From positions 44,029 to 108,028 of the forward strand of contig CP144805.1 of NCBI GenBank assembly GCA_036689365.1: a stretch of 64,000 nt of DNA, written 5' to 3'. The notes under the pieces were generated by a model. It was not told where the DNA came from, did no database searches, and saw only the letters and a program-made list of their open reading frames with translations. Positions 1-64,000 of the stretch are shown here, piece after piece (position 1 is the stretch's first letter; every line of letters starts with the position of its first letter). Both the position numbers and the translations under genes were made by a program. Source of the stretch: Candidatus Stammera capleta. Lineage in GTDB: Bacteria > Pseudomonadota > Gammaproteobacteria > Enterobacterales > Enterobacteriaceae.

Positions 1-1319
1 CTTTAAAAAATAAAGGTATTCAATGTTTATTAGATGCTATAATAGATTATTTACCTTCACCAAAAGATTTGTGTTTAATAAATGGTTTAAGTATAAATTC
101 TAAATCTAGTTTAGAACGTAAAATAGATGATAAAGAATTTTTTTCTTCTTTAGCTTTTAAAGTTAGTAATGATCCTTTTGTAGGTAATTTAACTTTTTTA
201 CGTGTTTATTCTGGTTGCATTAAATCTGGAGATATAGTATTAAATTCTACTAAAAATAAGCGTGAACGTATTGGACGTATTGTTCAAATGCATGCTAATA
301 AAAAAGAAGAAATAAAAGAAGTTTATGCAGGAGATATAGCTGCTGCTATAGGTTTAAAAAGTATTACTACTGGTGATACTTTATGTGATATTAATAATCC
401 TATTATTTTAGAAAAAATAAAGTTCCCTAGTCCTGTAATATCTATTGCATTAGTTCCTGATACTAAATTAGATCAAGAAAAAATGGGTATAGTTTTATAT
501 AAATTATCTAAAGAGGATCCTTCTTTAAAATATTGATATGATAATGAATCTAATCAAACAATTATATCTGGTATGGGTGAATTACATTTAGAAATTATTG
601 TAGATAGGATGAAAAGAGAATTTAATATAAATTGTAATATTGGAAAACCTGAAGTTTCTTATAGAGAAACTATTTTAGATAGTTCTTTGGGTATTGAAGG
701 TAAATATATTAAACAAACTGGTGGTAGGGGGCAATATGGTCATGTAGTTATTGATTTATTACCTTTATCTTCTTCTGAATATTCTATTTCTGATAATGGT
801 TATTTGTTTGTTAATGATATCAAAGGTGGAGTAATACCTAATGAATATATTTCTGCAATAGATAAAGGTATAAGAGAACAATTAAAGTCTGGTCCTTTAT
901 CTGGTTATCCAGTTATAAATGTTAAAATAAGATTATTTTTTGGTTCTTATCATGATGTAGATTCATCTGAAATAGCATTTAAAATGGCTGCTTCCATAGC
1001 TTTTAAAAAAGCTTTTTTGAAATCTAAACCTGTTTTATTAGAACCTATTATGAAAATAGAAGTCGAAACTCCTGATGAATATATGGGAGATGTAATAGGA
1101 GATTTAAATCGTCGTAGAGGTATTATAAGTAAAATTAATGATATTAATGTTGGTAAATTAATAAAATGTTATGTTCCTTTGGCTGAAATGTTTGGTTATG
1201 CTACAGATTTAAGATCACAAACTCAAGGTAGAGCTTTATATACTATGGAGTTTAGTAAATATTCTATATCTCCTAATTATATCTGTGAAAAAATAATTAA
1301 TTTACGTAATAATAAATAA
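1..1319 (+). CDS. fusA: Elongation factor G (5' end outside window)
   Basis: Frame 3 is open from the window edge. ...[27 protein letters not shown]... and ...[12 protein letters not shown]... are EF-G hallmarks. One in-frame TGA (534-536) sits at a conserved Trp. TAA stop at 1317-1319. Followed by tuf as in the str operon. Confidence 0.97.
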
Positions 1320-1348
1320 ATTTTTTAATATTAAATAAGGTGTTATAT

Positions 1349-2533
1349 ATGTCAAAAAAAAAATTTGAACGTTCTAAAATTCATTTAAATGTTGGTACAA
1401 TAGGTCATGTTGATCATGGTAAAACTACTTTAACTTCTGCTATTACTACTGTTTTAGCTAAAAAATTTGGTGGACAACCTTGTGCTTTTGATCAAATTGA
1501 TAACGCTCCTGAGGAAAAAGCTAGAGGTATTACTATTAATACTTCTCATGTTGAGTATGATACTGCCAAAAGGCATTATGCTCATGTTGATTGTCCTGGT
1601 CATGCTGATTATATTAAAAATATGATTACTGGTGCAGCTCAAATGGATGGAGCTATTTTAGTAGTAGCAGCTACTGATGGACCTATGCCTCAAACAAGAG
1701 AACATATTTTATTAGCTCGTCAAGTAGGTGTTCCTTATATTATTGTATTTTTAAATAAATGTGATATGGTTGATGACGAAGAATTATTAGAGTTAGTTGA
1801 AATGGAAGTAAAAGATATATTGACTCAATATAATTTTCCGGGAAATGAAACTCCTATAATAAGAGGTTCAGCTTTAAAAGCTTTATCTGGAGATGTTAAA
1901 TGAGAAAAAAAAATTTTTGAATTAGCAAATTATTTAGATAATTATATACCTGATCCTAAAAGAAATATAGATCAACCTTTTTTATTACCTATAGAAGATA
2001 TTTTTTCTATTTCTGGTAGAGGAACTGTAGTTACAGGTAGAATTGATCAAGGTTTAATAAAAGTTGGTGATGAAGTAGAAATAATAGGTATTAAAGATAC
2101 TAAAAAATCTATATGCACAGGAATAGAAATGTTTCGTAAATTATTAGATGAAGGTAGAGCAGGTGAAAATGTAGGTATATTATTAAGAGGTATAAAAAGA
2201 GAAGATATAGAGAGAGGTCAAGTTTTAGCAAAACCTGGTAGTATTAATCCTCATACTTATTTTGAATCTGAGGTTTATGTTTTATCTAAAGAAGAAGGAG
2301 GTAGACATACACCTTTTTTAAATGGTTATCGTCCTCAATTCTATTTTAGAACTACAGATGTTACAGGAACAATTGAATTACCTAAAGGAATAGAAATGGT
2401 TATACCTGGTGATAATGTTAAAATTTTTGTAAAGTTATTTAGTCCTATAGCAATGAATGAAGGATTAAGATTTGCTATCAGAGAAGGTGGTCGTACTGTA
2501 GGAGCAGGTATAGTTAGTAAAATTATTTCTTAG
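1349..2533 (+). CDS. tuf: Elongation factor Tu
   Basis: [36 protein letters not shown] and NKCD motifs. C-terminal half matches ...[17 protein letters not shown] 1901-1903 aligns with the single Trp of E. coli EF-Tu. Both ORF pieces (1340-1903, 2129-2533) share one frame. TAG stop; 'taagg' SD upstream. Confidence 0.98.
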
Positions 2534-2554
2534 AATTAATTTAATGGATTATAA

Positions 2555-2866
2555 ATGATAAATCAAAGAATTAGAATTAAATTAAAGGCTTTTGATCATC
2601 GTTTAATAGATATTTCTACGTTAGAAATTATAGAAACTGCTAAAAAAACTGGTGCTCAAGTTAGTGGACCTATACCTTTACCTACTTCAATTGAACGTTT
2701 TACTATTTTAGTATCTCCTCATGTAGATAAAGATGCTAGAGATCAATATGAAATTAGAACACATAAACGTTTAATTGATATTATTAAACCTACTGAAAGA
2801 ACTGTAGATGCTCTTATGAAACTAAATTTAGCTTCTGGAGTAGATGTACAAATAAGTTTAGGTTAA
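2555..2866 (+). CDS. rpsJ: 30S ribosomal protein S10
   Basis: [16 protein letters not shown]...GPIPLPT...[29 protein letters not shown] is near-identical to the S10 consensus. First gene of the S10 operon. Confidence 0.98.
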
Positions 2867-2873
2867 ATTTATT

Positions 2874-3494
2874 ATGATTGTATTAATTGGTAGTAAAATA
2901 GGAATGACAAGACTATTTAATAGTAACGGTGTTTCTTTTGCTGTTACATTAATTGAAATTAAAGATAATATTATTACTTGTATAAAAAAAAATAAAAATA
3001 AATATGTTACTCAGGTAACAACTGGTATTTTAGATGAAAGAAAAATTAATAAACCTAAATTTGGTTTTTATAAAAAAATAAATATTAATCCAGGTTTAGG
3101 TTTATGAGAAATACCTTATGTAAAGAATTTGCATTTACATGTTGGACAGTCTTTGAATGTAAATTTATTTAATAATGTGAAAAAGGTTGATGTAATAGGT
3201 ATTACTAAAGGTAAAGGTTTTTCGGGTACTATTAAAAGATGAAATTTTAGTTCTCAGGATAGTACACATGGTAATTCTTTATCTCATAGGGTACCAGGAT
3301 CTATAGGTCAGAATCAAACTCCGGGAAGAGTTTTTAAAGGAAAAAAAATGTGTGGACATTTAGGTAATATTAGGAACACAAAGTTAAATTTAAAAATTGT
3401 TAAAATATATGATGATAAAAATATTTTACTTATTAAAGGTTGTGTTCCTGGATATAATAATAGTAGATTAATAATTAGATCATCAATTAAATAA
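2874..3494 (+). CDS. rplC: 50S ribosomal protein L3
   Basis: [15 protein letters not shown]... matches the L3 N-terminus. In-frame TGA at 3105-3107 (GLGL-W-E) and 3240-3242. TAA at 3492-3494. Confidence 0.95.
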
Positions 3495-61930: not shown

Positions 61931-62083
61931 ATATTTTTTAATTTTAAATAATTTATTGTTTTAAATTATTTTTAAAGTATATTTTATTAATTTATATTGG
62001 TATATATATATTATATATATATAATATAATTTATGATATATTAAAATATATTTTATAACTTTATAATATGATAACTATTTTAT

Positions 62084-62929
62084 ATGGAAGTTAATATCAC
62101 TAATTTTAAAATATTTAATTTAAGTAGATTAAATTCTTATATATATAAGGTAAATTCTTTACCAGTTTTATCTTTAGAAAAAGAATATAAATTAATTAAT
62201 AGATTTTATTATTATGGTGATTTAGATTCAGCTAAGAAATTAGTTCTTTATCATTTGCGTTTTGTTATATATACTGCTAAAAATTATTCAGGTTATGGTT
62301 TATCTCAATCAGATTTAATTCAAGAAGGTAGTATTGGTTTAATGAAAGCAGTTAAAAAATTTAATCCTTTTTATGGTGTTAGAGTTATTTCTTTTGCTAT
62401 TTATTGAATTAAAGCAGAAATACATGAATATATTTTAAAAAATTGAAAAATTGCAAAGGTTGCTACTACTAAATCTCAACGTAAATTATTTTTTAATTTA
62501 AGAAAGATGAAGAAAAGAAATGGATGATTCAATAATAAAGAAATTAATATTATTGCAAATAAATTTAATGTTTCTAAAAAAGATGTTATAGAAATGGAAT
62601 CTCGTATGTTTTCTAAAGATTTAATAATTGATAAAAAAATTGATTCTTATTGTCCGTATTTTTTTTCTTTTATATTAGATAAATATTCTAATTTTACTTA
62701 TAATTTTGAAAAATTGAATTGAAAAAAATATAATACAAAAAAATTAAAAAAAGCTCTAAGTAATTTAGATGATAGAAGTAAACATATTATAAAATCAAGA
62801 TGATTATATAGTAAAAAAAAAGCTACTTTAAAAAAATTAGCTTTATATTATTCTATATCTGCAGAAAGAATTAGACAATTAGAAAAAAATGCTATGAAAA
62901 AATTAAAATTAGTTTTAGAAAATAATTAA
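62084..62929 (+). CDS. rpoH: RNA polymerase sigma-32 (heat-shock sigma factor)
   Basis: ...[53 protein letters not shown]. Then ...[34 protein letters not shown] (RpoH box) and ...[17 protein letters not shown]. Five in-frame TGA (e.g. 62405-62407, 62444-62446) at E. coli Trp positions. Confidence 0.97.
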
Positions 62930-62980
62930 TTTTTTATATATTTAAAGTTTAATTTAATAATATTATTTAATAGGTTTATT

Positions 62981-63505
62981 GTGACTACTATATTAAGTGT
63001 TAGAAAAAATAATTTGGTTGTTATGGGTGGTGATGGTCAGGCAACTTTTGGTAATACAATTATGAAAAGTAATGTACGTAAGGTACGTAAACTTTATTAT
63101 AATAAAATTATTGCTGGTTTTGCTGGTGGTACGGCAGATGCTTTTACTTTATTTGAATATTTTGAAAAAAAATTAGAAATGTATCAAGGACATGTAATTA
63201 AATCTGCGGTAGAATTAGCTAAAGATTGAAGAACAGATCATAGTTTAAGAAAATTAGAAGCTTTATTAGCTATTACTGATGTTAAATATTCTTTAATTAT
63301 TACAGGAAGTGGAGATATAGTTCAACCTGAAAATAATTTAATTGCAATAGGTAGTGGTGGTTCTTATGCTCTAGCTTCAGCTAGAGCTTTATTGGAAAAT
63401 ACTGATCTTGATGCACGTAGTGTAGTTAAAAAATCTTTATCTATTTCCGCAGATATATGTTTATATACAAATCATATTTTTACAATTAAAGAATTAAATT
63501 ATTAA
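62981..63505 (+). CDS. hslV: ATP-dependent protease subunit HslV
   Basis: GTG start. [80 protein letters not shown]-terminal Thr nucleophile retained. TGA at 63227-63229. Confidence 0.97.
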
Positions 63506-63527
63506 TTTTAATTTAAGGATATTATTT

Positions 63528-64000
63528 ATGTATACAGAAATGACTCCTCAAGAAATTGTTTATGAATTAAATAAATTTATTATAGGTCAAGATAACGCTA
63601 AAAAAGCGGTAGCAATTGCATTAAGAAATAGATGACGTAGAATGCAATTGAATGATGATTTTCGTAATGAAATTACTCCTAAAAATATTTTAATGATAGG
63701 TCCTACTGGAGTAGGAAAAACAGAAATAGCTCGTAGATTAGCTAAATTAAGTAATTCTCCTTTTATAAAAGTTGAAGCAACTAAATTTACTGAGGTTGGT
63801 TATGTAGGTAAAGAAGTTGATTCTATTATAAGAGATTTAGTTGATTATGCTATTAAAATGATTAAGATGAAGGTTATTAAAATTAATATATCTAAAGCTA
63901 AAAAAATAGCTGAAGAACGTATATTAAATATATTATTATTAAAAGAAAATATAGATAAAAAAGATTATTCTAAATATGAAATTCAAAGAAAAATATTTTT
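63528..64000 (+). CDS. hslU: ATP-dependent protease ATPase subunit HslU (3' end outside window)
   Basis: [40 protein letters not shown]...[59 protein letters not shown] at 63633-63635. Confidence 0.97.

What the first reader, a model, noticed from the sequence alone, without database searches (positions are those of the whole stretch)
1..64000. UGA is read as Trp throughout; TGG is still used alongside it
Seen:
- Nearly every conserved gene is split in the standard-code ORF track, and the pieces always share one frame.
- Each break is a TGA that aligns with a Trp in well-known orthologs. Examples: the single Trp of EF-Tu (1901-1903), the single Trp of DnaK (31955-31957), EF-G (534-536), L2 (5180-5182), Rpo[13 protein letters not shown] (62405-62407, 62444-62446), HslV D-W-RTD (63227-63229), HslU NR-W-RR (63633-63635), and GlyQ, CysS and Lon (YID-W-..P-W).
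- I saw dozens of such codons.
- Every stop I could place is TAA or TAG; none is TGA.
- TGG persists. In rpsC, TGA (5984-5986) and TGG (5996-5998) encode the two Trp of the conserved ..W..(S/T)W.. block four codons apart. Other TGG codons are at rplD 3688-3690 and rpsN 9103-9105.

Known: UGA=Trp (code 4) occurs in Mollicutes and in a few tiny insect symbionts such as Hodgkinia (Alpha) and Zinderia/Nasuia (Beta). It is typically tied to loss of RF2 and a tRNA-Trp anticodon change, or wobble tolerance.

Inference: the gene order here looks Enterobacterales-derived (see the synteny finding). This may therefore be an independent recoding event in a gammaproteobacterial lineage, which to my knowledge is rare. 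I cannot tell whether this genome is already described.
Basis: partly seen in the sequence, partly recalled or inferred. Interest (0 to 1): 0.7.

Follow-up and report, generated by a model that had tools for sequence, protein, structure and literature searches.

The report
UGA-as-tryptophan code in a Stammera symbiont

Summary
All 12 listed codons are as stated. With TGA read as sense, 70 complete ORFs cover 95% of the window. With TGA masked, 114 of 126 aligned in-frame TGA codons (90%) face a Trp in the E. coli K-12 ortholog, against a 0.97% background (P ~1e-213). All 70 stops are TAA (64) or TAG (6), and gene ends match E. coli. TGG persists (17, against 131 TGA). TGA and TGG interchange at orthologous sites between related genomes.

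The organism is not new. ClpX is 100% identical to a protein on a 305,864-bp NCBI contig. The closest titled relatives are syntenic 'Candidatus Stammera capleta' chromosomes. Code 4 in Stammera is credited to Salem et al. 2017, and about 50 genomes are annotated with it. One relative I fetched (CP144787.1) has TGG at all 26 comparable sites and no in-frame TGA, matching the basal code-11 Stammera clade described in a 2026 preprint.

Neither trnW nor prfB is in the window, and I could not reach them for this strain. Published surveys report only tRNA-Trp(CCA) in Stammera, and prfB annotated in 15 of 49 genomes.

Verdict: real, correctly interpreted, already known.

The parts
1..64000 (.). Whole window: 71 protein genes (70 complete ORFs plus partial hslU at the 3' edge; fusA runs off the 5' edge) that are intact only if TGA is a sense codon. 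131 in-frame TGA, 17 TGG, no TGA stops.
534..536 (+). TGA in fusA (EF-G) facing E. coli Trp
1901..1903 (+). TGA at the single Trp of EF-Tu (E. coli W184; GDVKWEKKI vs GDAEWEAKI)
5180..5182 (+). TGA in rplB (L2) facing E. coli Trp
5984..5998 (+). rpsC: TGA (5984-5986) and TGG (5996-5998) encode the two Trp of the conserved W..(S/T)W block, four codons apart
3688..3690 (+). TGG in rplD facing E. coli Trp (KKPWRQKGT)
9103..9105 (+). TGG in rpsN, the C-terminal Trp, facing E. coli Trp
28624..31425 (-). ileS: 20 in-frame TGA, all 20 facing E. coli Trp, plus 2 TGG also facing Trp. The most TGA-rich gene in the window.
31955..31957 (+). TGA at the single Trp of DnaK
62405..62446 (+). rpoH: two of its five TGA codons (62405-62407, 62444-62446). 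All five face E. coli Trp.
63227..63229 (+). TGA in hslV facing E. coli Trp (DWRTD)
63633..63635 (+). TGA in hslU facing E. coli Trp (NRWRR)
47906..47981 (+). tRNA-Arg(TCT), the only tRNA gene in the window. No tRNA-Trp gene lies here, so the decoding tRNA cannot be examined from this window.

Best explanation
The window is part of a ~306-kb chromosome of Candidatus Stammera capleta, the extracellular pectin-digesting gut symbiont of tortoise and hispine leaf beetles (Enterobacteriaceae-derived Gammaproteobacteria). It belongs to the clade that uses translation table 4: UGA is an ordinary Trp codon, synonymous with UGG, and termination uses only UAA and UAG. Shown here: UGA sits at conserved Trp positions; no gene in the window ends at UGA; UGA and UGG swap between strains at the same sites; and one relative in the same named species still has UGG at all those sites. 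The TGA share of Trp codons (88.5%) is close to the A-ending share of other NNA/NNG pairs (93-97%). That is what AT mutational pressure on a synonymous pair predicts. Taken from the literature, not from this strain: Stammera encodes only tRNA-Trp(CCA), with a normal 5-bp anticodon stem, and most code-4 strains lack RF2. Inferred: without effective RF2, nothing competes for UGA. The near-cognate tRNA-Trp(CCA) then reads it through a C:A mismatch at the third codon position, and TGG drifts to TGA.
For:: 114/126 masked in-frame TGA face E. coli Trp (background 0.97%); P = 8.6e-214; 64 TAA and 6 TAG stops, 0 TGA; C-termini match E. coli; 131 TGA and 17 TGG; 51/71 genes carry TGA, including EF-Tu, DnaK and ribosomal proteins; the base after TGA is A in 41% against 47.5% background, so there is no read-through context; five code-4 Stammera chromosomes share TGA at 26-31 of the same Trp sites (independent assemblies), with TGA/TGG interchange. 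CP144787.1 (L097) has TGG at 26/26 comparable sites and 0 in-frame TGA in 6,056 codons. ClpX is 100% identical to a protein on a 305,864-bp NCBI contig; gene order is the same as in chromosomes titled Candidatus Stammera capleta, with 62-77% amino-acid identity over 18-23 genes. Literature: PMC10540940 Table 2; PMC13462651 Table 2; PMC13092985; preprints 10.1101/2023.12.12.571295 and 10.64898/2026.05.24.727570.
Against: 12 of 126 aligned TGA face a non-Trp residue in E. coli (V, S, L, F, A, G). These lie mostly in poorly conserved genes (alr, rplW, glyS, speA/B, rsmD) and look like lineage-specific Trp gains or local misalignment. tRNA-Trp and prfB of this strain were not seen: they are not in the window, and the source record could not be retrieved. 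Published counts leave roughly 10 of about 44 code-4 Stammera genomes with an annotated prfB, so RF2 loss cannot be assumed here. No protein-level evidence exists.
Confidence: 0.97

Rival explanations
1. Ambiguous or transitional code: UGA is mostly read as Trp, but a retained, active RF2 still terminates some genes at UGA, as proposed for the Providencia siddallii symbiont of Haementeria acuecueyetzin.
For: Published surveys find prfB annotated in 15 of 49 Stammera genomes, only 5 of which are reported to use code 11 (PMC13462651 Table 2; preprint 10.64898/2026.05.24.727570). This strain resembles the code-11 relative in size and GC (306 kb and 18.6% for the window, against 314 kb and 18.3% for locus L097). 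TGG is about twice as frequent as G-ending codons in other NNR pairs (Fisher p = 0.005).
Against: None of the 70 gene ends in the window needs a TGA stop, and none overshoots its E. coli ortholog. 72% of genes carry in-frame TGA, including the most highly expressed ones, against 20% in the Providencia case (PMC10540940). There is no A-rich context after TGA.
Confidence: 0.05
2. The in-frame TGA codons are not translated: they are pseudogene lesions or systematic sequencing or assembly errors in a standard-code genome.
For: None beyond the bare fact that ORFs break under table 11.
Against: The breaks are only ever TGA, never TAA or TAG. 90% fall exactly on conserved Trp columns. Frames and lengths are preserved. 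The same TGA sites recur in five independently assembled relatives.
Confidence: 0.01
3. UGA encodes a different amino acid: glycine (table 25) or selenocysteine/cysteine.
For: One of 126 aligned TGA faces Gly in E. coli.
Against: 114/126 face Trp, 1 faces Gly and 0 face Cys. TGA interchanges with TGG, not with GGN or TGY codons, between strains, apart from a single TGT.
Confidence: 0.005

Closest known systems
Candidatus Stammera capleta, translation table 4 (credited to Salem et al. 2017; ~50 genomes in preprint 10.1101/2023.12.12.571295)
   Same: Same named lineage. Gene order is the same as in six Stammera chromosomes. The ~306-kb contig and 18.6% window GC fall inside the published ranges (0.22-0.34 Mb, 13.9-20.4% GC). 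UGA is at Trp positions and stops are TAA-dominated. 72% of genes carry UGA, against 62% published for the reference strain.
   Different: It is not the reference strain. The nearest chromosome I could read is only 77% identical at the amino-acid level over 21 genes. This strain's own trnW and prfB status were not examined.
Basal code-11 Stammera clade (preprint 10.64898/2026.05.24.727570), here represented by CP144787.1 (locus L097)
   Same: Same synteny, similar size (314 kb) and similar GC (18.3% over the locus).
   Different: L097 has 0 in-frame TGA and 31 TGG, with TGG at all 26 comparable Trp sites where the window has TGA. The preprint reports that the 5 genomes of that clade keep prfB. 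L097 also keeps ftsY next to rsmD, which the window has lost.
Candidatus Zinderia insecticola (Betaproteobacteria, code 4)
   Same: AT-rich tiny insect symbiont that reads UGA as Trp with only a tRNA-Trp(CCA) and no tRNA-Trp(UCA).
   Different: Zinderia's tRNA-Trp(CCA) has a 4-bp anticodon stem, which has been proposed to explain UGA reading. Stammera's is reported to have the normal 5-bp stem (PMC13092985). It is also a different proteobacterial class and an independent event.
Candidatus Hodgkinia cicadicola and Candidatus Nasuia deltocephalinicola; Mycoplasmatales
   Same: UGA=Trp, with more than half of genes carrying UGA in the two insect symbionts.
   Different: These lineages lack prfB and carry a cognate tRNA-Trp(UCA); in Hodgkinia and Nasuia it has replaced tRNA-Trp(CCA) (PMC10540940 Table 2; PMC13462651 Table 2).
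Candidatus Providencia siddallii of Haementeria acuecueyetzin (Enterobacterales, early-stage code 4; PMC10540940)
   Same: Enterobacterales-derived symbiont with only tRNA-Trp(CCA) and in-frame UGA at Trp positions.
   Different: Only ~20% of its genes carry UGA, at least nine genes still appear to stop at UGA, and prfB is present with an in-frame UGA. In this window, 72% of genes carry UGA and none stops at UGA.

Membership tests
Translation table 4 (UGA = Trp) | In-frame UGA codons in conserved genes align with Trp in orthologs | tested here: met
   114/126 aligned TGA face E. coli Trp, with TGA masked during alignment; background 0.97%
Translation table 4 (UGA = Trp) | UGA is not used as a terminator | tested here: met
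   70/70 stops in the window are TAA or TAG, and C-termini agree with E. coli. Tested for this 64-kb window only.
Translation table 4 (UGA = Trp) | UGA is not Gly (table 25) or Sec/Cys | tested here: met
   1/126 TGA face Gly and 0 face Cys; between strains TGA interchanges with TGG
Translation table 4 (UGA = Trp) | Release factor 2 (prfB) absent or inactive | not testable with these tools
   prfB is not in the window, and the source chromosome and other Stammera records could not be fetched beyond +/-10 kb of clpX. Literature: prfB is annotated in 15 of 49 Stammera genomes (PMC13462651).
Translation table 4 (UGA = Trp) | A tRNA able to read UGA as Trp (UCA anticodon, or a CCA variant) | not testable with these tools
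   The only tRNA in the window and in six related loci is tRNA-Arg(TCT). Literature: Stammera has tRNA-Trp(CCA) only, with a 5-bp anticodon stem (PMC10540940, PMC13462651, PMC13092985).
Candidatus Stammera capleta | Sequence relatedness and shared gene order with chromosomes deposited under that name | tested here: met
   ClpX is 68-81% identical to CP144825.1, CP144840.1 and CP144799.1. Over 18-23 genes, amino-acid identity is 62-77% with the same gene order in six chromosomes. The best non-Stammera ClpX hits (Buchnera) are at 62% or less.
Candidatus Stammera capleta | Genome size 0.22-0.34 Mb and 13.9-20.4% GC | tested here: met
   The identical ClpX lies on a 305,864-bp contig, and window GC is 18.6%. 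Ranges are from PMC13462651 Table 2.
Candidatus Stammera capleta | Cassidinae beetle host and pectinase genes | not tested
   No pectinase gene lies in this window, and the title and host of the source record were not retrievable.

The most novel reading that the evidence does not exclude
This strain could be one of the minority of code-4 Stammera that still carry a prfB gene. By my subtraction from published counts, that is roughly 10 of about 44 code-4 genomes. It would then be a genome in which RF2 coexists with UGA-Trp codons in about 72% of genes, decoded by an apparently ordinary tRNA-Trp(CCA). That would make it a natural late intermediate for asking how UGA is captured without an anticodon change, and what neutralises RF2. 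More generally, how a 5-bp-stem tRNA-Trp(CCA) reads 88% of Trp codons through a C:A mismatch is not explained in the papers I read.
Probability: 0.2. Interest if true: 0.45.

Novelty: already known. Interest (0 to 1): 0.15.

Why it matters
Gene calling with table 11 would break 72% of the genes in this window, so annotation of this sequence must use table 4. Biologically it adds nothing new, because UGA=Trp in Stammera is published and about 50 genomes are already annotated that way. What remains interesting belongs to the lineage rather than to this window. Stammera contains both code-11 and code-4 members, never has a tRNA-Trp(UCA), and sometimes retains prfB. That makes it a good natural series for studying how a stop codon is captured.

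Tried and rejected
1. Exact-protein look-ups of window Der, DnaJ and ClpX found no retrievable record. ClpX is nevertheless listed at 100% identity on a 305,864-bp NCBI contig, so the strain and host name stay unknown.

2. The listing of cluster members gave no names.

3. A protein search with the partial HslU, meant to give a handle on DNA beyond the right edge in relatives, returned mostly short enterobacterial HslU fragments and no Stammera-sized contig. That search was wasted.

4. The fetch of an annotated region does not hold CP144799.1 or CP043983.1.

5. Supplements of PMC13092985 and of the two preprints held nothing on the Stammera tRNA-Trp, prfB or genome sizes.

6. A memory-based lead, that EF-Tu substitutions A375T or G222D raise nonsense read-through in E. 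coli, was negative: the window's EF-Tu is wild-type at both sites.

7. I suspected that a 114-133-aa ORF called in relatives was a miscalled RNase P RNA. That was wrong: rnpB lies beside it, not under it. The ORF is not ppiB-like, and the window has no ORF at that place.

8. Summed lengths of stop-free runs under table 11 against table 4 did not separate the code-11 relative from the code-4 relatives, because AT-rich off-frame ORFs swamp the signal.

9. The first sequence in the failed one search was partly typed by hand and was discarded. One search used the exact translations printed.
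Full report
**Observation.** These are TGA at 534, 1901, 5180, 5984, 31955, 62405, 62444, 63227 and 63633, and TGG at 3688, 5996 and 9103. If only TAA and TAG are treated as stops, 70 non-overlapping ORFs tile 95.2% of the window with very short spacers. If TGA is also a stop, the longest ORF drops from 933 to 510 aa and summed ORF length drops from 24,844 to 16,575 aa.

**Trp-column test.** I fetched 14 regions of E. coli K-12 MG1655 that hold orthologs of 68 of the 71 window genes. I translated the window genes with every TGA written as X, so that the alignment could not be pulled towards Trp, and aligned them with tblastn.
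- Of 126 in-frame TGA codons that fell in aligned columns, 114 (90.5%) face a Trp in E. coli.
- Trp makes up 0.97% of the 18,992 aligned E. coli residues, so the binomial P is 8.6e-214.
- The other 12 TGA face V, S, L, F, A or G, mostly in weakly conserved genes.
- 13 of 16 aligned TGG also face Trp.
- Seen from the E. coli side, its 185 aligned Trp columns are TGA in 114 cases, TGG in 13, and another codon in 58.
- ileS alone has 20 TGA, and all 20 face Trp.

**Stops.** All 70 complete ORFs end in TAA (64) or TAG (6). The distance from the last aligned residue to the stop matches E. coli within a few residues for nearly all genes. Where lengths differ, the window gene is shorter or equal to E. 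coli in nearly every case; dusA has a longer, unaligned C-terminal tail that contains no TGA. The two TGA codons that lie beyond the last aligned residue (rpoA, cysS) are each within 11 codons of a stop that matches the E. coli gene end to within one residue. From memory, not a tool result, E. coli has a Trp near each of those C-termini. No gene in the window needs TGA as a terminator.

**Codon usage.**
- The window has 131 TGA and 17 TGG, and 51 of 71 genes carry at least one TGA. 'Nearly every gene' is therefore a mild overstatement.
- Two of the 131 TGA lie in a 32-codon upstream extension of the longest dnaK ORF that is probably not coding.
- TGA is 88.5% of Trp codons. Eight other NNA/NNG pairs are 93-97% A-ending, so TGA and TGG behave like a normal synonymous pair under AT pressure.
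- TGG shows a roughly two-fold excess over G-ending codons in those pairs (Fisher p = 0.005). That fits weak selection for the cognate codon or incomplete drift.
- The base after TGA is A in 41% of cases against 47.5% for all codons, so there is no read-through-type context.

**Identity of the organism.**
- ClpX, which has no TGA, is 100% identical to a protein on a 305,864-bp NCBI contig. It is followed by about 40 relatives on contigs of 245-314 kb, and only then by Buchnera and other Enterobacterales symbionts at 62% or less.
- The single genome-collection scan returned 'MAG: Candidatus Stammera capleta' chromosomes CP144840.1 and CP144825.1 as the nearest titled relatives.
- CP144799.1, CP144787.1, CP043983.1 and CP144810.1 were retrieved through their ClpX proteins. 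All six share the window's gene order around clpX.
[quoted passage not shown]' (10.1101/2023.12.12.571295).

**Comparison within the lineage.**
- At window TGA sites that face E. coli Trp, five relatives have TGA at 26-31 sites and TGG at 1-3. Window TGG also pairs with TGA in relatives. The two codons therefore interchange as synonyms, and the TGA sites recur in independent assemblies, which rules out assembly error.
- The sixth relative, CP144787.1 (313,940 bp; 18.3% GC over the locus), has TGG at all 26 comparable sites. It has no in-frame TGA, against 31 TGG, in 6,056 aligned codons.
- This matches a 2026 preprint reporting five basal Stammera genomes that use code 11 and keep prfB (10.64898/2026.05.24.727570).
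- The window belongs to the recoded clade, and the ancestral state at these sites was TGG.

**Mechanism.**
- Shown here: UGA is a sense codon for Trp, it is not used for termination in this window, and it arose from UGG within the lineage.
- From the literature, not from this strain: all Stammera genomes have tRNA-Trp(CCA) and none has tRNA-Trp(UCA) (PMC10540940 Table 2; PMC13462651 Table 2). The tRNA has a normal 5-bp anticodon stem, unlike Zinderia's 4-bp form (PMC13092985). prfB is annotated in 15 of 49 genomes (PMC13462651).
- Inferred: where RF2 is gone or ineffective, tRNA-Trp(CCA) reads UGA through a C:A mismatch without competition, and AT pressure converts TGG to TGA.
- The window holds only tRNA-Arg(TCT) and RNase P RNA as RNA genes, so neither trnW nor prfB could be examined.
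- EF-Tu is wild-type at two positions that I recalled as read-through-enhancing in E. coli.

**Rivals.**
- Pseudogenes or sequencing errors are excluded by the Trp specificity, the preserved frames and lengths, and the recurrence in other assemblies.
- Gly or Sec decoding is excluded by the column counts.
- A transitional, ambiguous code like that of one Providencia siddallii strain cannot be fully excluded without the whole chromosome. It is unlikely, because no TGA stops are needed and 72% of genes carry TGA, including EF-Tu, DnaK and ribosomal proteins.

**Verdict.** By published counts, that is the reported state of some code-4 strains.

Noticed in passing
window 10970-11008: rpmD (ribosomal protein L30) is absent. 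Only a 39-nt spacer separates rpsE from rplO, where E. coli has rpmD.
   Followed up: partly
window 56302-56571 (-): An 89-aa ORF directly downstream of rpsA has no NCBIfam match and no E. coli hit. It sits where E. coli has ihfB. The equivalent 89-aa gene in relative L098 (4996-5265) has a weak HU/IHF Pfam hit (PF00216). It is probably a highly degenerate ihfB. No gene is called at this place in L001.
   Followed up: partly
window 35902-38652 (-): These two genes are speB (agmatinase) and speA (arginine decarboxylase) by their E. coli matches, so a polyamine synthesis pair is retained next to metK in this ~306-kb genome.
   Followed up: partly
window 15769-16854 (+): alr (alanine racemase, NCBIfam TIGR00492) holds 4 of the window's 17 TGG codons. 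Two of these TGG, and both of its TGA, face non-Trp residues in E. coli Alr (33% identity). Its GC content (18.6%) is ordinary. The reason for the TGG enrichment is unexplained.
   Followed up: partly
window 45297-45625; L001 16058-16402, L097 16225-16626, L098 15974-16330: Relatives have a called 114-133-aa K/I/N-rich ORF with no Pfam hit between rnpB and cysS. The window has stops in every minus-strand frame there, and nothing similar was found on either strand. The ORF is not ppiB-like.
   Followed up: yes
window 41613-42074 (+): The RodZ-like gene is only 153 aa, against 337 aa in E. coli. It keeps the N-terminal helix-turn-helix part, which is PF13413 in the relatives' homologs.
   Followed up: no
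window 61391-62929; L097 1-1316: In the window, rsmD is followed directly by rpoH. The code-11 relative L097 still has ftsY next to rsmD, as in E. coli, and has no hemW called between rsmD and dnaB, where the window has it. Gene content therefore differs between the code-11 and code-4 lineages.
   Followed up: no
window 31556-31651: The longest dnaK ORF starts at a TTG 32 codons upstream of the conserved [14 protein letters not shown] start. The extension contains two TGA and is probably not translated. The likely true start is the ATG at 31652.
   Followed up: partly
L099 14205-14531: In the 250-kb Stammera chromosome CP144810.1, folD is called as only 108 aa (C-terminal domain only). That suggests folD is decaying in the smallest genomes, whereas the window's folD is intact at 285 aa.
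   Followed up: no
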